Assembly (NCBI GenBank): GCA_964626205.1 | Contig: CAZVED010000002.1 | Coordinates: 23,708-87,707 of the forward strand | Length of the DNA: 64,000 nt | DNA from: an uncultured Gammaproteobacteria bacterium | GTDB lineage: Bacteria > Patescibacteriota > Patescibacteriia > SG8-24 | Direction: 5' to 3' | Part shown: piece by piece, positions 3,273 through 55,478 of the stretch | How the letters are laid out: every line of letters begins with the position of its first letter | Numbering within the stretch: position 1 is the first letter of the stretch | Notes under the pieces: generated by a model | What the model saw: the letters and a program-made list of their open reading frames with translations, nothing else | The model's database searches: none | What the model was told of the DNA's origin: nothing | Translations under genes and position numbers: made by a program

Positions 3273-4412
3273 ATGCAGGCCGTGACGCCCACAACTTGGG
3301 TCGACGTCTCCGCAAATGCGCTTCGTGGCAACATGCGGGAATTACGACGTCTCGTCGGTCAGGGCGTGAAGCATATGGCTGTCGTGAAAGCGAACGCCTA
3401 CGGCCACGGCCTCATCGAGGTCGTCGGTGCGGTCAATGAGGAAGCCGACTGGTTCGGTGTCTTCTCGTTAGAGGAAGCGCTCATGGTCCGCTCCGTAACG
3501 AAGAAACCCATCCTCATCCTCGGCGGCACCGTCAAGGAGAACCTGCCGTTCGTCGTGGAACATGGTTTCAGTCAGACCTGCTCCACGCTGGAAGCCCTCA
3601 CTGCGATGTCTGCCGCGGCGACCGCGGAGCGTCCGGCAAAAGCGCATCTCAAGATCGAGACCGGCACTTCGCGCCAAGGCATCCATGTACAGGATCTTCC
3701 TGCGCTCCTGGGACGTGCCAAGGAACTTCCGCATCTGGAGATTGAAGGCGTCTTCACGCATTTCGCCAACATCGAGGACACCACCGACGATACGTACGCG
3801 ATGCAGCAGCTTGCACGTTTCGATGCCGCGCTTGAGGCCTTCGCGGCAGCCGGCATGCCGCAGCCGCTCACGCATACCGCCAGCTCAGCTGCGGCAATGC
3901 TCTACCCGGCGACGCACCGCTCCATGGTCCGCACCGGCATTGCGCTCTACGGCCTCTGGCCCTCCGACGAGACGAAGGTCTCCTTGCGCTACCTCGAACG
4001 CGACGTCACGCTCGTGCCCGCGCTTACCTGGAAGACGCGCGTCATCCAGGTGAAGCCGCTCGCCGCCGGCACGCCCGTCTCCTACGGCCTTACGGAGAAG
4101 GTGACGCGGGACTCCCGCATCGCCGTGCTTCCCACGGGCTACTGGGACGGTTACGACCGTGGACTCTCTTCGGTCGGCGAGGTCCTCATTCGCGGCAAGC
4201 GTGCGAAAGTACTCGGCCGCGTCTGCATGAACATGACGGTCGTCGACGTCACGGACATCCCGGATGCCGCAGACGGTGACGAAGTCGTGCTGCTGGGCCG
4301 GCAGGGGACGGAATCCATCTCCGCGGACGAGCTCGCACGCAAGCTCGGCACCATCACCTATGAGGTCGTCACGCGCATCAACCCGCTTTTGCCGCGCATC
4401 ATCGTCGCATGA
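3273..4412 (+). CDS. alr: Alanine racemase (PLP-dependent)
   Basis: Contains VVKANAYGHG, the PLP-lysine motif. The 379 aa length fits the family, and GGAG precedes the ATG. Confidence 0.9.
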   Translation: MQAVTPTTWVDVSANALRGNMRELRRLVGQGVKHMAVVKANAYGHGLIEVVGAVNEEADWFGVFSLEEALMVRSVTKKPILILGGTVKENLPFVVEHGFSQTCSTLEALTAMSAAATAERPAKAHLKIETGTSRQGIHVQDLPALLGRAKELPHLEIEGVFTHFANIEDTTDDTYAMQQLARFDAALEAFAAAGMPQPLTHTASSAAAMLYPATHRSMVRTGIALYGLWPSDETKVSLRYLERDVTLVPALTWKTRVIQVKPLAAGTPVSYGLTEKVTRDSRIAVLPTGYWDGYDRGLSSVGEVLIRGKRAKVLGRVCMNMTVVDVTDIPDAADGDEVVLLGRQGTESISADELARKLGTITYEVVTRINPLLPRIIVA

Positions 4413-4415
4413 CCT

Positions 4416-5477
4416 ATGACGAACCACACCAAAACGACCATCGCCGTCATCCATGGAGGCCGCTCCGGAGAGCATGAGATCTCCCTGCTTTCGGCGCGCT
4501 CAATCATGGACGCGTTGGATAAGGAGAGGTACGACGTCCTCCCGATTCTCATCGGTAAAGATGGCGTGTGGACCGTCGGCGGCGAGACGCGCTTGCTGTC
4601 TCCGGATGCCAAAGGAGGGAACTTGCTCCGTGAAGACGGGAGTCTCGCCGAACGGTTCGATGTCGCTTTCCCGATCGTTCACGGGACAGACGGCGAGGAT
4701 GGCGCGCTCCAAGGCATGCTCCGGCTGGCCGATATTCCGTTCGTGGGGAGCGACGTGCTCGGATCCGCCATCGGCATGGATAAGGTCATGCAGAAACGCG
4801 TGCTCCGCGACGCCAAGATCCCTGTCGCCGCATGGGTCGATTTCCGCGCGCACGAATGGGAAGCCGATCACGAGGCCGTCGTCGGCCTCATCGAGGTCAG
4901 CCTCAACTATCCAGTCTTCATCAAACCCGTGAGCCTCGGTTCCTCGGTCGGCATCAGCAAGGCGCGCAACCGCCAAGAACTGCTCGATGCCATCGCCTTG
5001 GCGCTGCGCGTCGATACGCACGTCATCGTGGAAAAAGCGGTTCCCGCCGCACGCGAGATCGAATGCGCAGCGCTCGGAAACGTCGACCACGCCATCTCCG
5101 TCTTCGGGGAAATTTTCCCGAGCAACGAATTCTACGACTACGCCGCGAAATATCTCGATGGCACGTCAACAACCGCGATTCCCGCGGACCTCCCGTCGAC
5201 CCTGGAGGAAAAACTGCGAGGAATGGCGGAACGCGCCTGCGCCGTGCTGAATGTGGAAGGTATGGCGCGTGTGGACTTCCTCATCTCACGCGATTCCGGG
5301 GAAGCGGTCCTCAACGAAATCAACACGCTCCCCGGATTCACCGCAATCAGCATGTATCCCAAACTCTGGGAAGCATCCGGTATCGCGTACCCAGCACTTC
5401 TGGACCGCCTCATCACGCTCGCTATCGCGCGGTACGGGGAACAGGAACAGCTGGAACGTGACTTCACCGCCCTATGA
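4416..5477 (+). CDS. ddl: D-alanine--D-alanine ligase
   Basis: Starts IAVIHGGRSGEHEISLLSA and has an ATP-grasp C-terminus (GMARVDFLI...NEINTLPGFT). It lies immediately downstream of alr. Confidence 0.9.
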   Translation: MTNHTKTTIAVIHGGRSGEHEISLLSARSIMDALDKERYDVLPILIGKDGVWTVGGETRLLSPDAKGGNLLREDGSLAERFDVAFPIVHGTDGEDGALQGMLRLADIPFVGSDVLGSAIGMDKVMQKRVLRDAKIPVAAWVDFRAHEWEADHEAVVGLIEVSLNYPVFIKPVSLGSSVGISKARNRQELLDAIALALRVDTHVIVEKAVPAAREIECAALGNVDHAISVFGEIFPSNEFYDYAAKYLDGTSTTAIPADLPSTLEEKLRGMAERACAVLNVEGMARVDFLISRDSGEAVLNEINTLPGFTAISMYPKLWEASGIAYPALLDRLITLAIARYGEQEQLERDFTAL

Positions 5478-6490
5478 GCGCCCCTTGGACACCCACCGCG
5501 TCCGCAAAACGTCGGGTGCGCGACTATCACAAGCGTCAGTACGGCAACCCGCTCTTCCGCCGCGATCAACGCACGAGTCGTCGTTCCACGCGCGAACCCG
5601 GAGCCTGGAAACGGTATGCCATCGCCGGCATAACGCTCTTCGCGGCAGGTACCGGAGCATGGTATCTGTTCTGGAGTCCGACCTTCACTATCGATGTCAT
5701 CGAAGTGAACGGCGCGACACCATCGACGGAGCGCCAGGTCCGCGACATCCTTGATGCGGAACTCGCGCGCAAGACTGCATGGATCGTCCCGCGAAGTTCA
5801 GTCTTCCTTTTCGATAAGCACTCGGCGGAAGCAGCGATTGCAGGGGACTTCCATTTCGAGTCCCTCCAGCTCGCCAAAAAGCTGCCTCGTACGCTCGTTG
5901 TCGATGTGACCGAAATCCCCAAACGCGCAGTCCTCTATGCCGACGGACGCTTCTTCGCGGTGAGCAGTACCGGGGCAGTCATTCGCGACCTCACGGAACG
6001 GGAACAACGGGAGCTCGGTGACATGCCGCCGGACATCGCCGCAACCGCCCTCGGCGATGCGGATGCGGAACTCGTCGAGCTCACGACGCTCATGCCGAAC
6101 GACGCTCCGGAAGCCGCCAAACAGAACGGGAACGGCACTCCGCTGCTCTTTGATGAACGCCTGCGCGAAACCGCACCGACACCCGGCGACGCGCTCTTCT
6201 CGGAGGTCACCTTGGCGCTCATCCTCCAAGCGAACGTCCGTCTGCCGGATATTGCCGGCAACGCCGTGCGCTGGTTCACTGTCCGCGAAAACGATGACGC
6301 CGTGGACGTGACCATGGAAGGGGATTGGCACCTCTATCTCACCACCACGCTGCCCTTTGAAGCCCAAGGGGAACGGCTCGGCCTCATTCTCCGGGAGAAG
6401 GTCGGGGATGACCGTTCTCGTCTCGACTATATCGACCTCCGATACAACGAGCGCGCCTATATCCGGTACAAGGACGACCCCGCCCCCTGA
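5474..6490 (+). CDS. ftsQ: Cell division protein FtsQ/DivIB-like (POTRA domain)
   Basis: Basic N-terminus, one TM segment (YAIAGITLFAAGTGAWYLF), then a POTRA-like fold (FTIDVIEVNGATPSTERQVRDIL...TLVVDVTEIPKRAVLYADGRFFAV). The start overlaps the ddl stop (ATGA). Confidence 0.7.
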   Translation: MSAPWTPTASAKRRVRDYHKRQYGNPLFRRDQRTSRRSTREPGAWKRYAIAGITLFAAGTGAWYLFWSPTFTIDVIEVNGATPSTERQVRDILDAELARKTAWIVPRSSVFLFDKHSAEAAIAGDFHFESLQLAKKLPRTLVVDVTEIPKRAVLYADGRFFAVSSTGAVIRDLTEREQRELGDMPPDIAATALGDADAELVELTTLMPNDAPEAAKQNGNGTPLLFDERLRETAPTPGDALFSEVTLALILQANVRLPDIAGNAVRWFTVRENDDAVDVTMEGDWHLYLTTTLPFEAQGERLGLILREKVGDDRSRLDYIDLRYNERAYIRYKDDPAP

Positions 6491-6572
6491 CAGCTTGCCC
6501 TTTGGGTGCCTTTTCGCATAAGGTGGGGAAGCGACCCTTTGCCCTTTTTCCAGTATCGAAAGGAGGCGCTCC

Positions 6573-8372
6573 ATGGACAAGAAACGGATGCTCATGACGG
6601 GATTCCTCGTCGCAGGCCTCGTCGCCATCGCAACGGTCGTCATGACCGAGCAAGCGCGCCCCAGCGTCAAACATGTCGACTTCGGCACGTTCAGCGGGAT
6701 GATCGATAGCGGCAAGCTGTCGGAGATCGTCATCTCTGGCACTGAGGTCGGCGGCAAGGGGGCGGGAAGCGACACGACGTACTACCGCTCCGTCGGCAAT
6801 GCGCCGGCCATCGAGATCCTCCTCCGCAAGGCGGAAGAGAAAAAAGTGCCGTACCGCATCGTCGAACCTGCGGACACGGGGTTCATCTGGACGATCGTGA
6901 TGTTCGGCATCCTGGGCTTCTGCCTGATCAGCTTCATGAGGTCAGCCGGAGGAGCAGGGAAGCAGATCACCTCGTTCGGACGCAGCAAGGCACGGCTCCT
7001 CAGCCCAAACACCAACGTCGTGAAGTTCACCGACGTGGCTGGTGTACCTGAGGCTGTCGAGGACTGCCGTGACCTCGTGGAGTTCCTCAAGAATCCGAAG
7101 AAATTCCAGAAGCTCGGCGGCAAGGTACCGAAAGGCATCCTGCTGATGGGTCCTTCAGGAACCGGTAAGACGTTGCTTGCGCGCGCGATCGCCGGAGAAG
7201 CGAATGTCCCATTCTTCTCCATCTCCGGCTCTGACTTCGTCGAGATGTTCGTCGGTGTGGGTGCATCCCGCGTCCGCGACCTCTTCGAACAAGGAAAGAA
7301 AAACGCGCCATGCATCATCTTCATCGACGAGATCGATGCGGTCGGCCAAAAACGCGGCCAAGGAACGAGCGGCGGCGGGCATGACGAGCGCGAGCAAACG
7401 CTGAATCAGCTGCTCGTGGAGATGGACGGCTTCGAAGGGAATGTCGGCATCATGATCGTCGCAGCGACGAACCGTCCGGACACCCTCGATCCCGCATTGC
7501 TCCGTCCCGGTCGCTTCGACCGAAAGGTCATCGTACCGCGGCCGGACCTCAACGGACGTGTCGCGATTCTCAAGGTTCACGCGAGGAAGATCCCGCTCGC
7601 TCCCGATGTCGACCTCTCTGTGACCGCTCGGGGCACGCCCGGATTCACCGGCGCGGACCTTGAAGACCTTCTCAACGTGGCAGCGCTCAAGGCGGCCAAG
7701 CTGGGCAAGGATGTCGTCGGGACCGACGACCTGGATGCGGCTCGCGACAAGATCGTGATGGGCGGCGATCCGCGCAAGGGCGTCGTCATGACGGAGCCTG
7801 AGCGCCGGATGACAGCCGTGCACGAGATGGGCCACACCATCGCGGCATGGTTCGAGCAAGATGCCCATCCGGTTCACAAGGTGACCATCATCCCGCACGG
7901 CCCGGCTCTTGGCGTCACCATGTTCCTTCCGGAAGGCGATCAGCGCAGCTACAGCGCGGAACAGATCATCAGTCAGATTCGTGTCGCCGTCGCAGGACGG
8001 GCGGCGGAAGAGCTCGTAATCGGACAGATCACGACCGGAGCAATCAGTGACTTCGAGCAAGCTACCGCCGCCGCGCGAGCCATGGTCATCAACTATGGCA
8101 TGACCGATGTCGGCATGCAGACCTTCGGCTCGAAACACCACGGCTTCCTCGGAACGGAAGAAGGTGTGCGCACCTACAGCCAAGCTACGGCGCGACGTAT
8201 CGACCGGAAGATCGAGTCGATCATCCAAGAGGCGTACGCGCACGTGAAGGCGTTGCTAACGACGCACCGCGCCTTGCTCGATGCGGGCGCGCAAGCCCTG
8301 CTCGAGCACGAGACGCTCGACGCCGCGCAACTCCGCGCCATCCTCGGCCCTCCGGTCTTCCGGATGGCCTGA
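6573..8372 (+). CDS. ftsH: ATP-dependent zinc metalloprotease FtsH
   Basis: N-terminal TM, AAA module ([23 protein letters not shown], Walker [32 protein letters not shown]) and M41 zinc motif [10 protein letters not shown]...GGRAAEE. Confidence 0.95.
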
Positions 8373-8377
8373 CCCCC

Positions 8378-8404
8378 GACCCCTCCTCACGGAGGGGTCT
8401 TTTG
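8378..8404 (+). terminator. Rho-independent terminator after ftsH
   Basis: GACCCCTCC-tcac-GGAGGGGTC hairpin followed by TTTTG. Confidence 0.6.
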
Positions 8405-8426
8405 TATCCGGTTTTGTCCGACATCC

Positions 8427-8470
8427 TTGACAAAACTGCCGGAATATGATATGGTCATGAGCGTACCTCA
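8427..8470 (+). promoter_or_regulatory. Sigma-70-like promoter TTGACA-N17-TATGGT with conserved downstream CATGAGCGTACCT
   Basis: TTGACA at 8427-8432 and TATGGT at 8450-8455. The same -10-to-+13 string recurs at 39584-39602. Confidence 0.45.
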
Positions 8471-8502
8471 ACGACCTTCGAACGCCCCGCCAAGGGGCGT
8501 TT

Positions 8503-9366
8503 ATGCTATGCTGGACGCCTATGAGCCTTACCGTCCTCGCGCTCGTCCTCCTTTCCGCCGTCATTCATGCCGGCTGGAACTTCCTCTCCAAGAAGGCGGG
8601 GGGTGACCTTGCCGTACTCACCTTGGGGGCCGCGGTCGCAGGCATCGTTTCCGTCCCGCTCGCGCTGCCGTTTCTGCCAAGCATGGAAGCCCTCCGCGCT
8701 GGCGCGCCCTACATGGTCGCCACCGCCGTCGTGCACTTCTTCTATTTCACCGCACTCGGACGCGCCTACGAGCACGGCGAGATTTCCGCGGTCTATCCGG
8801 TAGCACGCGGAGCGGGTGTCGCCCTTACCGGCCTCCTTGCCGTGCTCCTGCTCGGCGACCATGTCACGCTCGTGGGCGGCGCCGGCATCGCCGCTGTCAC
8901 CATCGGCGCGCTTCTCATTCGTTCGGTCGGGAGCGGTGAAGCGCGCCACGACCACGCCATGCTCATGGCGCTTGCCGTGAGCGTCCTCATCGTCGCGTAT
9001 TCGCTCATCGACAAGCTCGCGGTCGGGGTGCTACACCCGACGGTCTACAATGGCGCACTCTTCGGCGGTGCAGCCATCCTCCTTTCGTCCTACCTCGCCT
9101 GGCGCGAACCCGGACGGCTCACCGCGACCTGGAACAAGAACCGCAACGCCATCCTCACAATCGGCATCGGCCAAGTCGCGAGCTACCTCATCCTGCTCTT
9201 CGCTCTGCGGATGTCCCAGGTGAGCTATGTCGTCGCCGCACGCGAGCTCTCCGTCGTCTTCGGGGCGCTGCTCGGCGTGAAGCTGCTCGGGGAGCGCATG
9301 ACCGAAAAAAAGGCGTTCGGCATCGCGGTCATCGTAGCAGGGCTCGTCCTCGTGAAACTGGCCTAG
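8503..9366 (+). CDS. EamA/DMT-family transporter
   Basis: Ten predicted TM segments in two homologous halves. HAGWNFLSKKAGG sits at the start of helix 1. An alternative start MSLTV is at 8521. Confidence 0.7.
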   Translation: MLCWTPMSLTVLALVLLSAVIHAGWNFLSKKAGGDLAVLTLGAAVAGIVSVPLALPFLPSMEALRAGAPYMVATAVVHFFYFTALGRAYEHGEISAVYPVARGAGVALTGLLAVLLLGDHVTLVGGAGIAAVTIGALLIRSVGSGEARHDHAMLMALAVSVLIVAYSLIDKLAVGVLHPTVYNGALFGGAAILLSSYLAWREPGRLTATWNKNRNAILTIGIGQVASYLILLFALRMSQVSYVVAARELSVVFGALLGVKLLGERMTEKKAFGIAVIVAGLVLVKLA

Positions 9367-9381
9367 TGTCTGCACACAAAT

Positions 9382-9417
9382 AAAACACCCCCGAACGTCG
9401 AACGTTCGGGGGTTTTC
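9382..9417. terminator. Bidirectional intrinsic terminator between convergent genes
   Basis: AAAACA-CCCCCGAACGT-cg-AACGTTCGGGGG-TTTTCGG. The perfect stem is flanked by A and T runs on both strands. Confidence 0.65.
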
Positions 9418-9419
9418 GG

Positions 9420-9995
9420 TCACATCGCGATGACCATCGGGTTGCCGGGGATGTTGCGGACCAAGACAGTCCACATGTTTGGGCGCCCGGGGAGCTGGCT
9501 CACCGGGACCGCGCGCACGAACGACATCGCGAGTCGACTGAACATCTGCGCGGATGCCGCATCGCCAGCCATCGAGAAGCCAGCGTAGTAGAAGAGCACC
9601 TTCGCGGCTGAGCGACGCGCTGCAGCGAACGGATCTTGGAGCGTATCGAGGAGCGCGACCGGGACATCCGACTGGAACGCCGACTGGAGCGCATTGTACC
9701 GGTCGGCACCCAACGCCATGAGCAGCTTGAACCCGTACCGCCGATCGAGGGTGTCCGCAAGGTTCTCCTGCTTCTCGCCCAAGCGACGCCCGAACACCTC
9801 GTGCTCATCCAAAGCCTCCTCGACGCTCACGCACATCGTCTGGATACGCTGGGCGCTGAGGATGGCCGTGAGCGCCTGCTCGACCTCTTCGATGTCCACC
9901 TCCGTGATCTCCTCGAGCGTAGCGTCACGCATCACCGAAAGGATTGGCGTCATCGTTTTCACGATTTGTCGCCGGATGAACTCACCGTATACCAT
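9420..9995 (-). CDS. Hypothetical protein (191 aa, soluble, no recognised motif)
   Basis: Clean ORF that ends 3 nt after the bidirectional terminator. No signal peptide. Confidence 0.5.
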   Translation of the reverse strand: MVYGEFIRRQIVKTMTPILSVMRDATLEEITEVDIEEVEQALTAILSAQRIQTMCVSVEEALDEHEVFGRRLGEKQENLADTLDRRYGFKLLMALGADRYNALQSAFQSDVPVALLDTLQDPFAAARRSAAKVLFYYAGFSMAGDAASAQMFSRLAMSFVRAVPVSQLPGRPNMWTVLVRNIPGNPMVIAM

Positions 9996-10087
9996 GTCCT
10001 GCCTCCTGGAAAAAAGACCTCGTCATTTCTGACCGCTCAACATAGCAGAAAAACGGCACCCTGTCAACCCTCTGCGACCAGGGCAGC

Positions 10088-10115
10088 AAAAACCCCGCTG
10101 TTTTCATCAGCGGGG
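10088..10115 (-). terminator. Intrinsic terminator of the 10120-10509 gene
   Basis: CCCCGCTG-atgaaaa-CAGCGGGG followed by TTTTTGC on the minus strand. Confidence 0.55.
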
Positions 10116-10119
10116 TCGT

Positions 10120-10509
10120 TCAAAGTCGGAGCGAACGTGCGAGCTCCTGCGGGTCCACGACACTGCGTGCAGCCGAGGGGATCGAGAAGTTATCGATAAG
10201 GAGCACGTATGCCGATCCGGTGTCCGTGAGAACGAACCCGATGACATCGATGCGTACCGGCGCAAGGAGACGCAACAGGCCGGTCTCATGGAACGGCATC
10301 TCGTGCGGATCCCTGCCACGCTCCGGTACCCGGAGTGGACGATCACGCGTCACGACCTCAAGGTACGGCGTCGGTGCAAGACGGCTTGGCATCACAAGGG
10401 AAGCGGCGACACGGCGCTCCATGGCGGCGACGCGGTCGTCGGCCGTTGCCTGGGAGGCTGCGGAAGCGACGATGAACGCCGTTGCCACGAGAACGAAGCG
10501 TCGCGACAT
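10120..10509 (-). CDS. Small secreted protein (signal peptide)
   Basis: Starts MSRRFVLVATAFIVASAASQATA, with a predicted signal peptide and cleavage near A-x-A. Confidence 0.5.
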   Translation of the reverse strand: MSRRFVLVATAFIVASAASQATADDRVAAMERRVAASLVMPSRLAPTPYLEVVTRDRPLRVPERGRDPHEMPFHETGLLRLLAPVRIDVIGFVLTDTGSAYVLLIDNFSIPSAARSVVDPQELARSLRL

Positions 10510-10593
10510 GACATCCTCCTTCGGAGCGACAGGGCGACCCTAGCATCCGTATACCTAAAAAACAACCCGCCTCGTCGGAGGCGGGTAGCGCAT

Positions 10594-11193
10594 TCATTCT
10601 TGCGCGGTCGTGACCGTGTAGTCGAGCGAGGCATTCATCGCGTCGATGTCGGGAAGCGTTGCTTCATGCGCCGCGAGCGGCCACATGGCCTGCACGATGA
10701 GCGCGATGGGGAGGTTCGGCTTCCGGAGGATGTACGTTTTTCCACGCACCTCGGAACCGTAGGCTTCGAAAAAGAACGACGCGTTCATTCCGTCTGCCGA
10801 GACCTGCATCTCTGAGGTTTCGATGCCGACATCAGCAGCCTCCATCAACACCTTTTCGGTGAGCGCGCGCGTGTCCATCGACGAAGGGACGGGGACGGCT
10901 TGGATGAGGTACGCGCTGCGCAACGCGGCATGACGAAGCTTGGCGACCACGCGCGAGGATTGCTCATCGGCGGTCAGCTCTTGGGGAATCCAGAGTTGCG
11001 ACGCGCGGTCAAGCCCGAACTCGAGATTGAACGTCGGAGCTGTAGGAGCTTCTGGCGGCGAAGGCTCCGGTGTCGGCGAAGTCGCGACGGGCGGAGACTC
11101 CGGTGGCGCGACCGGCGTCACGGATGACGGAGGCGGCTTGGAGGCGCATGCGAACAAGACGAACGAAAGGGCGAGAAGTGCGATACGGTGCAT
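10594..11193 (-). CDS. Lipoprotein, paralog family member 1
   Basis: Start chosen at MHRIALLALSFVLFAC (lipobox LFAC) because AAGGAG precedes it. A Pro-rich linker (PPESPPVATSPTPEPSPPEAPTAPT) is followed by a C-terminal domain ending ...IVQAMWPLAAHEATL. Confidence 0.6.
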   Translation of the reverse strand: MHRIALLALSFVLFACASKPPPSSVTPVAPPESPPVATSPTPEPSPPEAPTAPTFNLEFGLDRASQLWIPQELTADEQSSRVVAKLRHAALRSAYLIQAVPVPSSMDTRALTEKVLMEAADVGIETSEMQVSADGMNASFFFEAYGSEVRGKTYILRKPNLPIALIVQAMWPLAAHEATLPDIDAMNASLDYTVTTAQE

Positions 11194-29349: not shown

Positions 29350-32016
<2,667 letters not shown>

Positions 32017-32020
32017 TGCT

Positions 32021-33631
32021 ATGCGCGAGCGCCTCCTCCCCCACCATCGCGGCATCATCATCGCCGGAACTGCCGGAAGCGGGAAAACGACGCTCGCAAA
32101 AGCCCTGACGCGCCGCGTCGCCGATGCGCGCGTCATCGAAGCCTCAGCCTGCGTCATCGGGCCGGCTTTGATGATGGCAACGTTCCCGAAAAGCGCGGAT
32201 GCCTTCGTCATGAAACTCCTCCGTGCGCAGAAGCGCCGGGTCGCCGCCCATGAACGCGAAGCTGCGAAGACGCTCAATCAAGAGCTGCGCCGAGCGTACG
32301 GACCAAGCATTATCGGCCTTGCGCTTCATGCCATGGCGCTCCGTGACGCGAAAGGTGGCATCCCGATCATCACCGGTGTGCGTGGCAATGACACCATGGA
32401 GGTCCTCCGCGCACTCGGCTACATCACGGTCTTTGTGGATGTGACGGAGAAGACTGCCGTCCAGCGTCTGATGCGGCGCGACGGCGTCTCCCGTTCTGAG
32501 GCACTAGCCGAAGTGCGCCGCGAACGACAACTGTTCGAGGTAGCGGATGCGAAGAACCATGCCGATATCCATCTCGTGCTCCCGGATGGCGCGGTTGATT
32601 CTGCGCTCGCGACGATTCTTGACCATATCGCCGTACGTGAATGCTCTCGCTGTATCAACGACACCGCAAACCCGACCATCACCATTGGTGCTGACGGACG
32701 CTGTTCCGTCTGTTCGTGGTACAAGAAGCATTTCAGCGAGACCCGGCTCGAAAAAGAACGGACCCTTTTCAAAAACCTCCGCGGAACGGGCGTGGGAGAA
32801 TATGACATCGCGGTCGGTATCAGCGGAGGCAAGGACAGCACGGCCATGCTCGCGACCGTCCTCGAGCTGGGCTTCACGCCGCTCGCCTTCACGCTCGACA
32901 CCGGCTACTACCCGGCGCACAGCTTTGCGCGCGCGAAGGCGGTCGCGAAAAAGCTCGGCGTGGACTGGGTCCGCGCCGACATCCGTGGCTATGCGCGCGC
33001 CTGCGACAAGGCATCCTTCCGCATGACTGCGAACCTCTACGACCTACCGGAAACCCCCGATGTCGCAAGCCTCTTCCGCGGCATCTACGCGCACAACCGC
33101 GAGCACTACGCCATCACCTGCAAGCATCCCATGCCGTTCGTTCGGAGCTGCATTCTCTGTCGTCGGCTCGTCATCCGCGCGTACCATGCCCTTGCTACGG
33201 AACATGGCATCAAGACCGTAGCATTGGGCATGAACGAATGGACCGGCCTCAGTAGCATCGGCACAAAGGCCGGTATCAGCGCGATGCGCGAACTCCGTCC
33301 ATCGAAAAAAGGACCGTCCGTGACTATCGTCCATGTCCCGTTCCTCTTCCGTCGCAAGCGCAAAGACACCGCGAAGATTCTCAAGAAACTCGGCTGGAAA
33401 GCGCCCATGAAGGAGTCCTTTGTGGAATCAAACGCCAATTCCTGCTTGCTTGCGTTCGCCATGGAAGCGAAGGCTGCACGTCTGCTCGGCTTCCATCCGG
33501 ATACGACACGCCTTGCGCGCGAAGTCACAGCCGGCTTCCTTACAAAGACCGAAGCACGGCATGCACTCGCTACAACGCATCCGTCTCCTCACTCCGCACG
33601 TGCGATCCTCCGAAAGGCGGGGTTGCTCTGA
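32021..33631 (+). CDS. Fusion protein: N-terminal P-loop kinase-like (dephospho-CoA kinase-like) domain plus zinc ribbon plus TtuA/NcsA-like PP-loop ATPase
   Basis: Walker A is IIIAGTAGSGKTT. The CoaE-like tail is ...QRLMRRDGVSRSEALAEVRRERQ. Then comes CSRC...CSVC, the PP-loop VGISGGKDS, and further Cys (CDKAS; CKHPMPFVRSCILC). ATG at 32021 is 5 nt after the clpB stop. Confidence 0.55.
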   Translation: MRERLLPHHRGIIIAGTAGSGKTTLAKALTRRVADARVIEASACVIGPALMMATFPKSADAFVMKLLRAQKRRVAAHEREAAKTLNQELRRAYGPSIIGLALHAMALRDAKGGIPIITGVRGNDTMEVLRALGYITVFVDVTEKTAVQRLMRRDGVSRSEALAEVRRERQLFEVADAKNHADIHLVLPDGAVDSALATILDHIAVRECSRCINDTANPTITIGADGRCSVCSWYKKHFSETRLEKERTLFKNLRGTGVGEYDIAVGISGGKDSTAMLATVLELGFTPLAFTLDTGYYPAHSFARAKAVAKKLGVDWVRADIRGYARACDKASFRMTANLYDLPETPDVASLFRGIYAHNREHYAITCKHPMPFVRSCILCRRLVIRAYHALATEHGIKTVALGMNEWTGLSSIGTKAGISAMRELRPSKKGPSVTIVHVPFLFRRKRKDTAKILKKLGWKAPMKESFVESNANSCLLAFAMEAKAARLLGFHPDTTRLAREVTAGFLTKTEARHALATTHPSPHSARAILRKAGLL

Positions 33632-34592
33632 ACAGATCGTCCACAAGGCGGCTCGCCTGCGCGAGCCGTTCTTCGTGCGTCCCGCGCAGCAACGCCCACG
33701 GCACGTTGCGTGTCGGTAAGAGCTCTTCAAAACGCCGGTGCATCGCGTGACGCCGAGGTCCGCCGTCCCGTAACCCGTCCTGCTCGAACGGGATCTCGTC
33801 GCCGGTCAAAAGGTACAAGTCCGGTTTCCGAGTAGCATTCGCCACGGCCTGCACGGCCGGAGACGACGCCCCCATATAGTGCTCATGCCACAACGTCGTG
33901 GCGAACGCATCCGTGTCGCAGAACAACACCTTGTTCGCGGACCGCGCCAGCATCTCCGTCATGCGCGTCTGCGTTTCCGCAATGAACGTGAACTCGTCCG
34001 TGCGCCAGCAATAGCCTGCATCGCCGTACTTCCCTTCCGCATATAACCGCCCGTATTCCGGCACCCACGCCGTCCGATACTTCGCGGCAAGCGCCTTCGT
34101 GAGCGTCGTCGTGCCAGTCGACTCCGCACCAAGGACGACCACGCGTTTCGCGAAGTGCGCGCGCACCGGCGGCTCGATGAATTCCCATTGCGCGAAAGGA
34201 TCCTTCCGCACCGCCGTCCCTGAGACTGGAAACGTCACGCGCGGCGCGTCCACGGAGACATGCTCGCACCCCATCGCCGCGGCATACGGCACGCCGTAGT
34301 CCTCGGAGCTGAACACCGCGTCTGGTGCCGCACCAAGAAACGCGACCGTATGTTCCGCCCACGCGACAGAATCATCGTCCTTCCAGATATCCGGAATGAT
34401 TCGCACGTCCGCGTCCGGATGGACCTCCTGCAACCACGAAGCGCGTGTCTCTGCCGGGATTACCTGCAACGGGTCGCCGACAACGAGCACGATGACGCGT
34501 TCGCAAGCTGCCTGCGCTGACCCGACGAGATGATGATGCCCTTTGTGGGGCGGAACAAACTTACCGACCACCAATCCCGTCCGGTACCGCAT
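33570..34592 (-). CDS. nadR: NadR-like bifunctional NMN adenylyltransferase / ribosylnicotinamide kinase (no HTH domain)
   Basis: GKFVPPHKGHHHL is the nucleotidyltransferase (H/T)xGH motif. Second-domain Walker A is VVLGAESTGTTTL. The 3' end overlaps the convergent gene by ~60 nt. Confidence 0.7.
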   Translation of the reverse strand: MRYRTGLVVGKFVPPHKGHHHLVGSAQAACERVIVLVVGDPLQVIPAETRASWLQEVHPDADVRIIPDIWKDDDSVAWAEHTVAFLGAAPDAVFSSEDYGVPYAAAMGCEHVSVDAPRVTFPVSGTAVRKDPFAQWEFIEPPVRAHFAKRVVVLGAESTGTTTLTKALAAKYRTAWVPEYGRLYAEGKYGDAGYCWRTDEFTFIAETQTRMTEMLARSANKVLFCDTDAFATTLWHEHYMGASSPAVQAVANATRKPDLYLLTGDEIPFEQDGLRDGGPRRHAMHRRFEELLPTRNVPWALLRGTHEERLAQASRLVDDLFRATPPFGGSHVRSEETDAL

Positions 34593-35262
34593 AGGCGTTC
34601 TTTTCAGAGATGACCGCTCCCGCAAGAATCTTCCGCCAGCTCAGAAGACCCCATGTCGCCATGGCGAGGAAGATGACATACTCCAACGCGATGAACCGCA
34701 CACCCTTCACGAAGTACAGCCAAATACCAATGACATCCACGATAATCCAGTATGTCCAGCAGTCCACGCGACGGCGCATCATGAGCACCGTCGCCGTGAA
34801 GCTCATGACAGTCGTGAGCGCATCAAGGAACGGGTAGTCTGCCGGAGCCGGAAAGGCTGCGGGCAGCAGCACATGAATGCGCGACATCAGCGTGCTGAGT
34901 ACCAGCGTTCCAACTGCGGTAATCGCGATTGCCGACACGGCTTCCATACGAGGAGAGCGTGTCACCGGAAGCTCCGTGCCTGGCTTCTTCTCCCCTTTCG
35001 GATGCGTCCACATCCACCACCCCCAGAACCCCGTCACGAAGAACCATGCCTGCTCGATCATGTCGGAGTACAAACGAATCTGGTAGAACAGGATGAAAAA
35101 CAGCACCACAGCAACGATGCCGACCGGCCAAGTGAGCACCTTGTTACGTGCCGCCAACCAAACACAGACAAGATTGAATACTGTTCCGAAGAACTCGATA
35201 TAGCTCATGGGATAGCCCATGACCGTGAAAAAGACGGTGTTGATGTCGAGCAGAGCGGTCAT
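34561..35262 (-). CDS. pnuC: Nicotinamide riboside/NMN transporter PnuC
   Basis: Starts MTALLDINTVFFTVMGYPMSYIEFFGTVFNLVCVWLAARN and contains WPVGIV...FWGWWMW. It has 7-8 TM segments and overlaps nadR by 32 nt. Confidence 0.85.
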   Translation of the reverse strand: MTALLDINTVFFTVMGYPMSYIEFFGTVFNLVCVWLAARNKVLTWPVGIVAVVLFFILFYQIRLYSDMIEQAWFFVTGFWGWWMWTHPKGEKKPGTELPVTRSPRMEAVSAIAITAVGTLVLSTLMSRIHVLLPAAFPAPADYPFLDALTTVMSFTATVLMMRRRVDCWTYWIIVDVIGIWLYFVKGVRFIALEYVIFLAMATWGLLSWRKILAGAVISEKNAYAVPDGIGGR

Positions 35263-54383: not shown

Positions 54384-55478
54384 TCAGGCAATGACTCCCC
54401 CACCAAGGCAGATATCACCATCGTAGAGCACGGCGAACTGACCCGAAGAAACCGCGCGTTGACGTTCAGTGAAGACGAGGTCGTAGCCGTCATCGCTCCA
54501 CTGCACGCGAACGTCTTGCAGTGGCTGGCGGTAGCGAATGCGCGCCTGGCAGGTAAAAGGGGCCTCCGGAGCGGTTCCGCTCACCCAATGCATGTCGTCG
54601 AGCATGACGACGTCGCGATACAGCGCCTCCGGATCCTCCCCGCGTGCCACGACGAGCGTATTGGTGGCAGACTGTTTGTCCACCACGTACGCCGGTTCCC
54701 CGCCACCGAGGCCGAGCCCATGGCGCTGCCCAACGGTGAACGGCGCAATGCCTTCGTGCCGACCAATGACCGCACCAGCGGTGTCCACGATGTCGCCCGG
54801 CCGCTGCGCGACATGCGGCGCAAGAAACGTCTTCATGTCCACTTTGCCGATGAAGCACAACCCCTGACTGTCCTTCTTTTCCGCGGTCGGTAAGCCCGCC
54901 TCGCGCGCCAAGCGGCGCACGTCCGGCTTCTCCAAGTGCCCGATCGGAAAAAGTGCGCGCGACAATTGCTCCTGATTGAGGCGGTGCAGGAAATACGACT
55001 GGTCCTTATTGAGGTCGGTGCCCGCCAGCAATTGCACCTTACCGTCGGCACCCTTGCCAATGCGCGCGTAATGCCCGGTCGCGATCATGTCTGCTCCGTC
55101 TGCAAGCGCACGCTCGAGGAACACGTCGAACTTCACGAGATTGTTGCAAAGCACGTCCGGATTCGGCGTGCGACCTTCGGCGTATTCACGAATCATGTAC
55201 GCGAAAACGCGCTCGCGGTACTCGGCCTCAAGGTCATAGGTGAGGAACGGAATATCCAAGTGGGCCGCGACCCGCATGGCGTCCCGGCGTTCCAGTTTCC
55301 AACCACATTCCTCACCCGCAGCATCTGCCGCCTCATCCGACCAGTTCTTCATGTAGACACCCGTGACCTCGTAGCCATCACGCATAAGCAAAAACGCAGC
55401 GACAGATGAGTCGACGCCGCCAGAGAGTCCGACGAACACTTTTTGCTTCTTGTTCTCCATAACGCACGACGATACCAT
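54384..55478 (-). CDS. mnmA: tRNA-specific 2-thiouridylase MnmA
   Basis: PP-loop VFVGLSGGVDSSVAAFLL and catalytic Cys (...GLCFIGK...). An alternative start is at 55460. Confidence 0.88.
   Translation of the reverse strand: MVSSCVMENKKQKVFVGLSGGVDSSVAAFLLMRDGYEVTGVYMKNWSDEAADAAGEECGWKLERRDAMRVAAHLDIPFLTYDLEAEYRERVFAYMIREYAEGRTPNPDVLCNNLVKFDVFLERALADGADMIATGHYARIGKGADGKVQLLAGTDLNKDQSYFLHRLNQEQLSRALFPIGHLEKPDVRRLAREAGLPTAEKKDSQGLCFIGKVDMKTFLAPHVAQRPGDIVDTAGAVIGRHEGIAPFTVGQRHGLGLGGGEPAYVVDKQSATNTLVVARGEDPEALYRDVVMLDDMHWVSGTAPEAPFTCQARIRYRQPLQDVRVQWSDDGYDLVFTERQRAVSSGQFAVLYDGDICLGGGVIA

What the first reader, a model, noticed from the sequence alone, without database searches (positions are those of the whole stretch)
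32021..33631. Unusual fusion of a CoaE-like P-loop kinase to a zinc-ribbon plus TtuA/NcsA-like PP-loop ATPase
The N-terminal ~200 aa has the Walker A (GTAGSGKTT) and C-terminal signature (QRLMRRDGVSRSEALAEVRRERQ) of dephospho-CoA kinase / nucleotide kinases.

The C-terminal ~330 aa has CxxC-x12-CxxC, the PP-loop SGGKDS, and a later C...C-x2-C cluster. This matches the architecture of Fe-S-dependent tRNA thiolases (TtuA/TtcA/NcsA), or possibly N-acetyl-sugar amidotransferases.

I do not know of a described fusion of these two activities. It could be a nucleotide or cofactor-modifying enzyme, for example a thio-cofactor or modified-nucleotide synthesis enzyme. mnmA is also present in the window, so the s2U34 route is already covered.
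Basis: partly seen in the sequence, partly recalled or inferred. Interest (0 to 1): 0.6.

Follow-up and report, generated by a model that had tools for sequence, protein, structure and literature searches.

The report
Kinase fused to iron-sulfur-type PP-loop enzyme
This is a real, conserved but uncharacterised two-domain enzyme of tiny symbiotic (CPR-type) bacteria, joining a small kinase to an ATP-dependent base-modifying module that most likely swaps an oxygen for sulfur or nitrogen on a purine nucleotide such as IMP.

Summary
One intact 536-aa ORF (32021-33631, +) joins a P-loop kinase-like domain (aa 1-200) to a zinc-ribbon plus PP-loop module (aa 204-536). The module carries an invariant CxxC...C triad.

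This is not a frameshift artefact. More than 100 protein clusters, mostly from Patescibacteria/CPR, share the fusion at 40-48% identity.

The N-domain has a CoaE/UPF0200-like fold but fails every CoaE model threshold. The C-module fails the TtcA, TtuA, QueC and NASAT (TIGR03573) thresholds, and its C-terminal 200 aa match no Pfam family. Even so, profile-profile alignment places all three cysteines on the three conserved cysteines of TtcA-type proteins. In TtuA those cysteines hold the [4Fe-4S] cluster.

The new finding is contextual. Where the kinase is absent, the module is fused to, or directly adjacent to, a stand-alone PurH IMP-cyclohydrolase domain. Kinase-fused genes recurrently sit next to Ham1 (ITPase).

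Best reading (about 0.4): adenylation of a purine lactam oxygen, with IMP the likeliest substrate, followed by replacement with S or N, coupled to a phosphorylation step.

Main rival: an RNA thiolase, favoured by the protein's extreme basicity.

The function is unproven. I classify it as a new variant of a known kind.

The parts
32021..33631 (+). Complete CDS (536 aa plus stop) of the kinase-PP-loop fusion protein
   Evidence: ORF list and translation. Start supported by alignment A1 and by the clpB stop 4 nt upstream. AF2 model pLDDT 92.4, pTM 0.85.
32021..32620 (+). N-terminal P-loop kinase-like domain (aa 1-200). It has a CoaE/UPF0200-like fold with a helical insert between strands 2 and 3.
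   Evidence: Pfam AAA_18, 32.7 bits (cutoff 29.4), aa 12-154. NCBIfam PRK08356, aa 13-192. Foldseek 3lw7/3h0k TM 0.74/0.71; CoaE 0.5-0.63.
32066..32092 (+). Walker A / P-loop GTAGSGKTT (aa 16-24; G16, G21 and K22 invariant)
32138..32140 (+). Invariant Glu40 ('IEAS'), a candidate general base for a hydroxyl acceptor. It sits where CoaE and nucleoside kinases carry an acidic residue (position recalled from memory, not tested).
   Evidence: Invariant in A1 and in the most divergent members. The catalytic role is inferred.
32630..33628 (+). Zinc-ribbon plus PP-loop plus Cys-triad module (aa 204-536). It also occurs as a stand-alone ~330-aa protein or fused to PurH-N.
   Evidence: about 35 full-length family clusters at 50% identity. 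HHalign against TtcA-like proteins: probability 98.2%.
32642..32713 (+). Tetracysteine zinc ribbon C208-x2-C211-x16-C228-x2-C231. It fits the NASAT motif CXXCXn[GN]XCXXC.
   Evidence: All four Cys invariant in A2. Motif definition and zinc binding from PMC10607449. TIGR03573 positions 3-135 matched.
32822..32839 (+). PP-loop SGGKDS (aa 268-273), the ATP pyrophosphatase signature
   Evidence: Invariant in 113 sequences. Coordinates.
33149..33160 (+). C377-x2-C380 at the N-terminus of helix 376-394. These are the first two predicted ligands of a Cys3 metal site (probably [4Fe-4S]).
   Evidence: Invariant. Aligned to the invariant CxxC of TtcA-like proteins. Secondary structure.
33425..33445 (+). 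'ESNANSC' motif ending in invariant C475, the predicted third ligand of the Cys3 site
   Evidence: Invariant. Aligned to the third invariant Cys of TtcA-like proteins in extended and global hhalign, and to the later Cys of Cys-triad NASAT-like proteins.

Best explanation
The gene encodes a bifunctional nucleotide-modifying enzyme.

C-terminal module:
- It is an ATP pyrophosphatase of the TtcA/TtuA-NASAT lineage.
- It binds ATP at the PP-loop and adenylates a lactam/amide carbonyl oxygen of its substrate.
- A nucleophile held at a conserved three-cysteine metal site then displaces AMP. The site is most likely a [4Fe-4S] cluster with one free iron.
- By family precedent the nucleophile is sulfide (oxo to thio). 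Ammonia (oxo to amino) is the alternative.

Substrate:
- It is most likely a hypoxanthine-type purine nucleotide, with IMP (O6) the best candidate.
- The recurrent partners could all supply IMP, and only IMP cyclohydrolase produces IMP specifically. These partners are a stand-alone IMP cyclohydrolase domain and Ham1/ITPase, plus two isolated cases of purine nucleoside phosphorylase.

N-terminal domain:
- It is a CoaE/UPF0200-like P-loop kinase.
- It either phosphorylates the nucleoside to make the substrate (for example inosine to IMP) or phosphorylates the NMP product.

Shown: the domain architecture, its conservation, the motif homology and the gene linkage.
Inferred: metal identity, substrate, nucleophile and the order of steps.
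For: 1. Conservation. The fusion occurs in more than 100 clusters and in 48 of 72 loci. The AF2 model is confident as one unit (pLDDT 92.4, pTM 0.85).

2. Invariant motifs. The PP-loop SGGKDS, the zinc ribbon and the Cys triad are invariant across 113 sequences. The divergent representatives printed also keep the CxxC and the third cysteine.

3. Homology of the triad.
- HHalign of the module against TtcA-like proteins gives probability 98.2%, E 3e-14. It runs from the PP-loop through CxxC to strand 4.
- Extended and global alignment puts C475 on their third invariant Cys.
- In TtuA three conserved Cys hold a [4Fe-4S] cluster with one free Fe. TtcA needs the cluster and its CxxC (PMC6225789).

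4. Rosetta-stone link to purine metabolism.
- The module is fused to PurH-N in P0105/L007, L089 and P0125. L095 looks like a broken fusion.
- A ~198-aa PurH-N gene is directly adjacent in L109, L120, L121/L130, L126, L081 and L129.
- This partner matches PurH positions 5-196 at E 3e-62. It keeps the motifs that I assign from memory to the four catalytic residues listed in PMC3261824.
- It was never found within about 8 kb of a kinase-fused gene.

5. Other neighbours.
- Ham1/ITPase is next to kinase-fused genes in four lineages, once with a 4-nt overlap.
- PNP_UDP_1 and NUDIX each occur twice among immediate neighbours.
- PurD follows a 5'-truncated family gene in L085.
- One locus is embedded in Tmk/Dcd/ThyA/DHFR genes.

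6. Precedent. YcfA is a PP-loop enzyme that adenylates O6 of free GTP before sulfur addition (PMC12494993).

7. N-domain. Its nearest structures are small-molecule nucleotide kinases: AMP-bound AdkA-like 3lw7, CoaE, and Odinarchaeota adenylate kinase.
Against: - No biochemical data exist, and neither the metal nor the substrate was tested.
- Outside the PurH-N and Ham1 links, gene context is not conserved. Second neighbours show nothing enriched.
- Both domains are extraordinarily basic. Median net charge is +9.3 and +10.4 per 100 aa, and the window protein has pI 10.0.
- Free-nucleotide enzymes of the same loci (Ham1, PurD, Tmk, Dcd, ThyA, DHFR) lie between -5.7 and +0.5. Only 3.9% of neighbouring proteins are as basic. 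This suggests a polyanionic partner such as RNA or DNA.
- A Cys3 Fe-S site argues for sulfur chemistry, yet a thiopurine nucleotide has no obvious housekeeping use.
- Amination makes metabolic sense but has no Fe-S precedent among PP-loop amidotransferases.
- The PurH-N partner has lost the canonical 'STGGT' loop, so its own substrate may not be FAICAR/IMP.
- Fusion data cannot say whether the module acts before or after IMP cyclohydrolase.
Confidence: 0.4

Rival explanations
1. It is an RNA (most likely tRNA) thiolase of the TtcA/TtuA/NcsA type. The PP-loop module adenylates a base carbonyl in RNA, and the Fe-S cluster delivers sulfide. The basic P-loop domain serves as an RNA-binding or RNA-dependent NTPase/kinase module, analogous to PSTK/KTI12 or polynucleotide kinases.
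For: - The Cys triad and PP-loop align with TtcA-like proteins.
- TtuA is among the best structural and sequence matches.
- The protein has an N-terminal zinc ribbon, as TtuA does.
- Both domains carry an extreme positive charge that is kept even in this 60% GC genome.
- Pnkp1 of an RNA-repair complex appears among the fold matches (rank 30).
Against: - The score is far below the TtcA, TtuA and NcsA model thresholds: 19.5 bits of 272 for TtcA, with no significant match to the TtuA or NcsA models.
- There is no C-terminal zinc finger; the cysteine list is.
- The C-terminal 200 aa are unrelated to these families by sequence.
- The strongest contextual signal is fusion or adjacency to a purine-biosynthesis domain (PurH-N) and to Ham1. 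That is not expected for a tRNA enzyme.
- The nearest structures of the N-domain are small-molecule kinases.
- tRNA enzymes in the same data are not basic: MnmA is -3 and TtcA-like proteins are -0.8 to +3.3 per 100 aa. Charge is therefore not diagnostic.
Confidence: 0.25
2. It is a folate-independent AICAR formyl-ligase (FAICAR synthetase) that replaced the PurH formyltransferase domain. The PP-loop module would activate formate as formyl-AMP and formylate AICAR, and the PurH-N partner would then close the ring to IMP. In kinase fusions the kinase would make AICAR from its riboside.
For: - The PurH-N-module fusion has the same domain order as bifunctional PurH. The ~335-aa module sits exactly where the formyltransferase domain normally is.
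- Stand-alone PurH-N in archaea works with a non-homologous ATP-dependent formyltransferase, PurP (PMC3261824).
- PurD is adjacent in L085.
Against: - To my knowledge, PP-loop enzymes adenylate the large substrate and use a small nucleophile. Formate activation by this fold has no precedent that I know of.
- This reading gives the invariant Cys triad no role.
- It explains neither the Ham1 link nor why the kinase and PurH-N are mutually exclusive partners.
- Most carriers are Parcubacteria-type genomes, which are generally thought to lack de novo purine synthesis (my own knowledge, not tested here).
Confidence: 0.08
3. It is an N-acetyl-sugar amidotransferase (NASAT, the WbuX/WbpG/PseA type) or a similar amide-to-amidine enzyme acting on a nucleotide-sugar for surface glycans.
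For: - The best single fold match is LpNASAT 8WEX.
- The best NCBIfam hit is TIGR03573 (E 2e-20).
- The tetracysteine motif fits the NASAT definition.
- A few loci have sugar-nucleotide genes nearby: NTP_transferase in L008, and epimerases at the second-neighbour position.
Against: - Only profile positions 3-135 of 344 match, at 73 bits against a cutoff of 203.
- The rest of the module, including the Cys triad, aligns to TtcA-like proteins instead.
- The one typical WbuX-like sequence inspected (L037) lacks the CxxC.
- No HisH/HisF-like ammonia donor or polysaccharide cluster is enriched among 206 neighbours.
Confidence: 0.07
4. The N-domain is a true dephospho-CoA kinase, and the fusion makes a CoA-related or other thio-cofactor.
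For: - The fold resembles CoaE (Foldseek probability 1.0).
- The CoaE tail region gives weak hits.
Against: - All CoaE models score below threshold.
- UPF0200/AdkA-like structures fit better.
- No CoA-pathway gene appears among the enriched neighbour families (the top-25 lists) or among the individually annotated neighbours.
- The alternative partner is a purine enzyme.
Confidence: 0.03

Closest known systems
TtcA / TtuA / NcsA [4Fe-4S]-dependent tRNA sulfurtransferases (PP-loop ATPases)
   Same: - PP-loop SGGKDS.
- CxxC at the start of the helix before strand 4, plus a third Cys after strand 5. All three align (HHalign 98.2%).
- N-terminal zinc ribbon, as in TtuA.
- The expected chemistry is adenylation followed by sulfide attack.
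   Different: - Far below the family HMM thresholds.
- A ~40-aa helical insertion lies before the CxxC.
- There is no C-terminal zinc finger.
- A distinct ~200-aa C-terminal half matches no Pfam family.
- It is fused to a kinase or to PurH-N.
- Context points to purine nucleotide metabolism rather than tRNA.
N-acetyl sugar amidotransferase (NASAT; TIGR03573; LpNASAT, PDB 8WEX)
   Same: - Best fold match (E 2.5e-9).
- Tetracysteine zinc motif CXXCXn[GN]XCXXC immediately before the PP-loop.
- Chemistry of activating an amide carbonyl.
   Different: - Only the first ~135 profile positions match.
- This family has an invariant CxxC...C triad, which the typical WbuX-like sequence inspected here lacks.
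- There is no polysaccharide or HisH/HisF context.
YcfA of the YcfA-YcfC 6-thioguanine pathway
   Same: It is a PP-loop (AANH) enzyme that acts on a free purine nucleotide. It adenylates the C6 lactam oxygen before a sulfur nucleophile adds (PMC12494993).
   Different: - YcfA uses free L-cysteine plus a PLP lyase (YcfC), not a Cys3 metal site.
- It has no zinc ribbon and no kinase fusion.
- No significant similarity was detected here beyond the shared fold class.
Dephospho-CoA kinase (CoaE) and archaeal UPF0200/AdkA-like P-loop kinases (PDB 3lw7, 3h0k)
   Same: - P-loop kinase fold with a helical substrate subdomain and a lid helix.
- Walker A motif.
- An acidic residue after strand 2.
- An arginine-rich lid ('RLxKRE').
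   Different: - Fails the CoaE HMM cut-offs.
- UPF0200 itself has no known function, and I found no paper on it.
- It is fused to a PP-loop module and is unusually basic.
Bifunctional PurH (IMP cyclohydrolase + AICAR formyltransferase)
   Same: Some family members have the architecture PurH-N (IMP cyclohydrolase) followed by a ~335-aa catalytic domain, which mirrors PurH.
   Different: - The C-terminal domain is the PP-loop module, not the folate-dependent formyltransferase.
- The window protein has a kinase in place of PurH-N.

Membership tests
Dephospho-CoA kinase CoaE (PF01121 / TIGR00152) | Whole-protein score at or above the curated cutoff | tested here: not met
   PF01121 scores 18.9 bits against 27, and only aa 135-166 match. 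TIGR00152 scores 15.3-19.1 bits against 65.55.
Dephospho-CoA kinase CoaE (PF01121 / TIGR00152) | P-loop kinase fold with Walker A and a helical CoA-binding subdomain | tested here: met
   Foldseek matches 4i1v, 6ari and 1n3b at E about 1e-5, TM 0.5-0.63. UPF0200 structures fit better, at TM 0.74.
Dephospho-CoA kinase CoaE (PF01121 / TIGR00152) | Phosphorylates the 3'-OH of dephospho-CoA | not testable with these tools
   Needs an enzyme assay.
TtcA/TtuA/NcsA Fe-S tRNA sulfurtransferases | PP-loop SGGxDS | tested here: met
   SGGKDS at aa 268-273, invariant.
TtcA/TtuA/NcsA Fe-S tRNA sulfurtransferases | Three conserved cysteines (CxxC plus a distal C) in the cluster-ligand positions | tested here: met
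   C377, C380 and C475 are invariant. They align to the three invariant Cys of TtcA-like proteins. The alignment of the third Cys has low per-residue confidence.
TtcA/TtuA/NcsA Fe-S tRNA sulfurtransferases | Score at or above the family model cut-offs (NF007972, NF049949, NF047749, PF01171) | tested here: not met
   NF007972 scores 19.5 bits against 272. PF01171 scores 13.2 bits against 27.
TtcA/TtuA/NcsA Fe-S tRNA sulfurtransferases | C-terminal zinc finger (TtuA/NcsA subgroup) | tested here: not met
   Cysteines occur only at positions 44, 208, 211, 228, 231, 328, 367, 377, 380 and 475. There is no second CxxC...CxxC pair.
TtcA/TtuA/NcsA Fe-S tRNA sulfurtransferases | Binds a [4Fe-4S] cluster and thiolates tRNA | not testable with these tools
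   Needs anaerobic purification, spectroscopy and activity assays.
N-acetyl sugar amidotransferase (TIGR03573, WbuX/WbpG/PseA) | Tetracysteine zinc motif CXXCXn[GN]XCXXC followed by the PP-loop | tested here: met
   C208/C211 ... G226-R-C228-S-V-C231, then SGGKDS.
N-acetyl sugar amidotransferase (TIGR03573, WbuX/WbpG/PseA) | Full-length match at or above the cutoff (203.2 bits) | tested here: not met
   73.4 bits, covering profile positions 3-135 of 344 only.
N-acetyl sugar amidotransferase (TIGR03573, WbuX/WbpG/PseA) | Location in polysaccharide/O-antigen clusters with a HisH/HisF-like ammonia donor. This feature is recalled from the family description, not read here. | tested here: not met
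   No such families appear among the 25 most frequent Pfam families of the 116 first and 90 second neighbours.
QueC (7-cyano-7-deazaguanine synthase; a database name given to several homologues) | PF06508 / TIGR00364 at or above the cutoff | tested here: not met
   PF06508 scores 16.4 bits against 22. TIGR00364 scores 15 bits against 150.3. Only the PP-loop region, aa 265-333, matches.

The most novel reading that the evidence does not exclude
The module could be a one-step, adenylosuccinate-independent 'AMP synthase'. It would adenylate O6 of IMP and displace it with ammonia. The IMP would come from IMP cyclohydrolase, from ITPase, or from inosine via the fused kinase. This would give reduced symbiotic bacteria a single-enzyme bypass of PurA/PurB. 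A still more radical version is direct re-amination of hypoxanthine within nucleic acids, which the extreme basicity and the Ham1 link do not exclude.
Probability: 0.12. Interest if true: 0.85.

Novelty: new variant of a known kind. Interest (0 to 1): 0.55.

Why it matters
- CPR/Patescibacteria depend on salvaged nucleotides, and much of their proteome has no assigned function.
- This is a well-defined, sharply bounded family. About 35 clusters at 50% identity match over the full length, and roughly 200 residues have no Pfam model.
- It combines the signature of Fe-S sulfur-inserting PP-loop enzymes with a kinase, or alternatively with the last enzyme of purine synthesis.
- If it acts on IMP-type nucleotides, it would define a new reaction in purine interconversion or thiopurine formation.
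- If it acts on RNA, it would define a new modification enzyme.
- Either outcome is directly testable with recombinant protein.

Tried and rejected
1. The genome-contig scan with the full alignment chose the generic PP-loop peptide. It returned mostly unrelated PP-loop genes, and only L010 and L011 were true members. The scan was redone on metagenomes with a C-terminal-only alignment. The off-target hits were reused as TtcA-like and NASAT-like outgroups.

2. Viral contigs gave no relative. PADLOC gave no defence-system match beyond P-loop noise. Phage and defence origins are therefore rejected.

4. The listing of cluster members gave no names. P0001 is not on record for the look-up of encoding contigs, so the source organism of the window was not identified.

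5. The link to the adjacent NadR-like/PnuC genes is rejected. The 74%-identical relative (L136) keeps LexA and LigB downstream but has no NadR or PnuC.

6. A split kinase gene next to stand-alone modules is rejected. The 164-aa ORF after the L008 gene has no P-loop. No kinase-domain homologue lies near any stand-alone gene.

7. Second-neighbour genes show no enrichment.

8. I tested whether Cys-triad-bearing NASAT-like proteins sit with HisH/HisF, which would have argued that the triad is compatible with amidotransfer. They sit instead in HAD / PP-loop / PPDK_N clusters, so the test is inconclusive.

9. Literature searches for the fusion, for UPF0200, and for direct IMP amination or thiolation enzymes found nothing relevant.
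Full report
**Observation**

The window holds one uninterrupted ORF on the + strand (31940..33631). The biologically supported start is the ATG at 32021. It lies 4 nt after the clpB stop and matches the N-termini of homologues (alignment A1). The product is 536 aa.

- Walker A GTAGSGKTT (aa 16-24).
- A tetracysteine ribbon C208-x2-C211-x16-C228-x2-C231. The spacer is 16 residues, not 12.
- PP-loop SGGKDS (aa 268-273).
- Later cysteines C367, C377-x2-C380 and C475.

mnmA is elsewhere in the window (54384-55478).

**The fusion is real and conserved**

- A search of 5.8 billion proteins found 173 relatives. More than 100 clusters are 530-545 aa long, cover 98-100% of the query, and are 40-48% identical (one is 74%).
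- Where these are named, they come from Patescibacteria/CPR lineages: Harrison-, Sung-, Yanofsky-, Lloyd-, Vogel- and Uhrbacteria. One record is labelled Woesearchaeota.
- In 72 non-redundant loci collected from metagenomes and genomes, 48 carry the kinase fusion. Nine carry a complete stand-alone ~330-aa module, and two carry a different N-terminal domain. Thirteen are truncated by contig ends.
- A profile search of 1.84 billion cluster representatives shows a sharply bounded family. About 35 clusters at 50% identity match over the full length. After those come fragments, and then distant proteins that share only the first ~120 positions, the zinc ribbon and PP-loop.
- AlphaFold2 on a 113-sequence alignment gives a confident single-unit model (pLDDT 92.4, pTM 0.85).

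**N-terminal domain (aa 1-200)**

- Only the generic AAA_18 model passes its threshold. CoaE models touch only the tail (aa 135-171) and score far below cut-off.
- Structurally, the best matches are Sulfolobus UPF0200/AdkA-like proteins (3lw7 with AMP bound, and 3h0k; TM 0.74 and 0.71). CoaE structures follow (TM 0.5-0.63), then a cytidylate-kinase-like protein and an Odinarchaeota adenylate kinase.
- The invariant residues are G16, G21, K22, E40 (in 'IEAS'), R79, G119-x-R121-G122, R149 and E168. E40 and the R-G pair are kept in the most divergent members.
- An invariant carboxylate just after strand 2 is typical of P-loop kinases that phosphorylate a hydroxyl. This is my own knowledge of CoaE, nucleoside kinases and T4 polynucleotide kinase, and was not tested here.

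The domain is therefore a CoaE-like fold, but not a CoaE family member.

**C-terminal module (aa 204-536)**

- Pfam finds nothing above threshold, and nothing at all for aa 334-536.
- The best NCBIfam hit is TIGR03573 (N-acetyl sugar amidotransferase, NASAT). It covers only profile positions 3-135 of 344 and scores 73 bits against a cut-off of 203.
- The tetracysteine motif fits the published NASAT definition, a zinc site (PMC10607449).
- The best fold match is LpNASAT 8WEX (E 2.5e-9), followed by TtuA.
- By sequence profile, the best solved relatives are TtuA PH0300 (8e-7), NAD synthetase, MJ0690, Thermus TtuA, NASAT and QueC. All match only the first ~120 positions.

The informative part is the Cys triad:
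- C377, C380 and C475 are invariant in 113 sequences. The divergent representatives printed also keep the CxxC and the third cysteine.
- Off-target hits of my first genome scan supplied eight TtcA-like proteins. Their best NCBIfam hit is TtcA, at 197-224 bits for the three members scanned.
- hhalign of the module against these proteins gives probability 98.2%, E 3e-14. The alignment runs from the PP-loop through CxxC to strand 4, and the family carries a ~40-aa insertion.
- In extended and global mode, C475 falls on their third invariant cysteine.
- In TtuA, three conserved cysteines hold a [4Fe-4S] cluster with one free iron. TtcA needs that cluster and its CxxC (PMC6225789).

The module is therefore best described as a new clade of the zinc-ribbon PP-loop enzymes that retains the Fe-S-type triad. 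A subgroup of TIGR03573-like proteins from Firmicutes and Treponema also has the triad. The one typical WbuX-like sequence I inspected does not.

**Gene context**

Most neighbourhoods are unrelated, but two links recur.

1. PurH-N (IMP cyclohydrolase).
- Wherever the kinase is missing, the module tends to be joined to the IMP cyclohydrolase half of PurH.
- It is fused in P0105/L007, L089 and P0125. L095 looks like a broken fusion.
- It is directly adjacent, on either side, in L109, L120, L121/L130, L126, L081 and L129.
- The partner matches PurH positions 5-196 at E 3e-62.
- It keeps the motifs GIKxIH, CNFYPF, NxDIGGP and RCAAKNY. From memory, I assign these to the four catalytic residues listed in PMC3261824. 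It has lost the 'STGGT' loop.
- PurH-N never occurs within about 8 kb of the 48 kinase-fused genes, and no separate kinase gene accompanies stand-alone modules. The two partners are therefore alternatives.
- A rough tree of the modules places PurH-N-linked members at two or three positions among kinase-fused ones.

2. Ham1/ITPase.
- It lies next to kinase-fused genes in four lineages, in different arrangements, once with a 4-nt overlap.

Isolated cases:
- Purine nucleoside phosphorylase and NUDIX genes, twice each.
- PurD after a 5'-truncated family gene.
- One locus embedded in Tmk/Dcd/dCMP-deaminase/DHFR/ThyA/dUTPase genes.

The NadR-like and PnuC genes next to the window gene are not conserved in its closest relative, so I discount them.

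**Mechanism**

- Shown: architecture, conservation, motif homology and gene linkage.
- Inferred, chemistry: the PP-loop adenylates a lactam/amide oxygen, and a nucleophile at a Cys3 metal site displaces AMP. The site is probably a [4Fe-4S] cluster.
- Inferred, substrate: IMP cyclohydrolase makes IMP, and ITPase makes IMP or XMP. Nucleoside phosphorylase plus a kinase could also make IMP. IMP (O6) is therefore the most economical substrate. The fused kinase would act just before it (inosine to IMP) or just after it (NMP to NDP).
- Precedent: YcfA shows that a PP-loop enzyme can adenylate O6 of a free purine nucleotide before sulfur addition (PMC12494993).
- Unresolved: family precedent favours sulfide (giving 6-thio-IMP), while metabolic logic favours ammonia (giving AMP). 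I cannot decide between them.

**Evidence that cuts the other way**

- Both domains are extremely basic. The window protein has pI 10.0 and a net charge of +33.
- The family medians are +9.3 (module) and +10.4 (kinase) per 100 aa.
- Ham1, PurD, Tmk, Dcd, ThyA and DHFR of the same loci lie between -5.7 and +0.5. A DNA glycosylase is +5.4. Only 3.9% of neighbouring proteins reach the family's value.
- The PurH-N partners are basic too, with pI 9.5-10.
- This suggests a polyanionic partner and keeps an RNA (or DNA) substrate as the main rival.
- Charge is not diagnostic, however. MnmA and the TtcA-like proteins in the same data are not basic.

**Other rivals**

- Folate-independent AICAR formyl-ligase replacing the PurH formyltransferase domain. 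The architecture is attractive, but the chemistry has no precedent and the triad would have no role.
- A NASAT-type amidotransferase. Only the N-terminal third matches, and the expected context is absent.

**Verdict**

- The finding is a genuine, conserved and undescribed domain fusion. No paper was found. Databases label homologues 'AAA family ATPase', 'QueC', 'cytidylate kinase' or 'hypothetical'.
- It is a new variant of a known kind: PP-loop ATP pyrophosphatases with an Fe-S-type triad.
- Its function is unknown but testable, and the best lead is purine (IMP-type) nucleotide modification.
- Confidence is about 0.4 for the best explanation and 0.25 for the RNA-thiolase rival. Interest is 0.55.

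Noticed in passing
window 33570-35262 (- strand): A NadR-like gene (33570-34625) shows an HxGH nucleotidyltransferase motif by eye and a Pfam AAA_28 kinase domain. A PnuC-type NMN/nicotinamide-riboside transporter (34561-35262) follows it. The NadR-like 3' end overlaps the 3' end of the studied gene convergently by 62 nt. The pair is absent from the closest relative's locus (L136), so the adjacency looks incidental.
   Followed up: partly
L012:1654-2724, L013:7989-9062, L014:7995-9053 (also L016, L019, L020): TIGR03573-like PP-loop proteins of Firmicutes and Treponema score 148-157 bits where scanned (L012 and L020), below the cutoff. They also carry a CxxC plus a later Cys. In L012-L014 they sit in a conserved HAD-hydrolase / PP-loop / PPDK_N (PEP-utilising dikinase-like) gene trio, with no HisH/HisF. 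This is an uncharacterised cluster that may also be Fe-S dependent.
   Followed up: partly
Proteins P0183, P0191, P0202, P0237, P0241, P0252 and others: Very large proteins (about 900-5400 aa) contain an internal copy of the zinc-ribbon plus PP-loop segment, matching profile positions ~3-125 at E about 1e-16 to 1e-22. Their other domains were not examined.
   Followed up: no
P0135 (878 aa); L122:3-1163 and L124:1-1308: In a deep-branching clade, the kinase-PP-loop protein is preceded by, or fused to, an APH/TCAD9-like phosphotransferase domain. In P0135 this gives a three-domain protein.
   Followed up: partly
L109:1359-1955, L121:1121-1717, L126:2661-3251, L081:588-1199; N-termini of L089 and L007: The stand-alone or fused PurH-N (IMP cyclohydrolase) partners keep the four catalytic motifs. 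They replace the canonical 'STGGT' loop with 'AS(K/L)xT' and are unusually basic (pI 9.5-10), which hints at an altered substrate.
   Followed up: partly
L095:2000-3887: The PurH-N-module fusion seen intact in the close relative L089 is split into two ORFs here (114 aa and 374 aa). This is either a frameshift or an assembly error.
   Followed up: no
window 32021-33628 and the whole family: Both domains are extremely basic (window protein pI 10.0; family medians +9 to +10 net charge per 100 aa). They far exceed the nucleotide-metabolism enzymes of the same loci, and this is conserved irrespective of genome GC content.
   Followed up: yes
L003 (GCA_026395055.1), 4241-10840: In one Uhrbacteria genome the gene sits inside a compact deoxypyrimidine block: Tmk, Dcd/dUTPase, [the gene], dCMP deaminase fused to a nucleoside deoxyribosyltransferase-like domain, DHFR, ThyA, dUTPase. 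No other locus showed this.
   Followed up: partly
L131-L134, 1764-2378: The stand-alone module P0113 is followed 22 nt downstream by a HAD-family phosphatase whose weak matches include nucleotidases. The arrangement is seen in four contigs carrying the identical P0113 gene.
   Followed up: no
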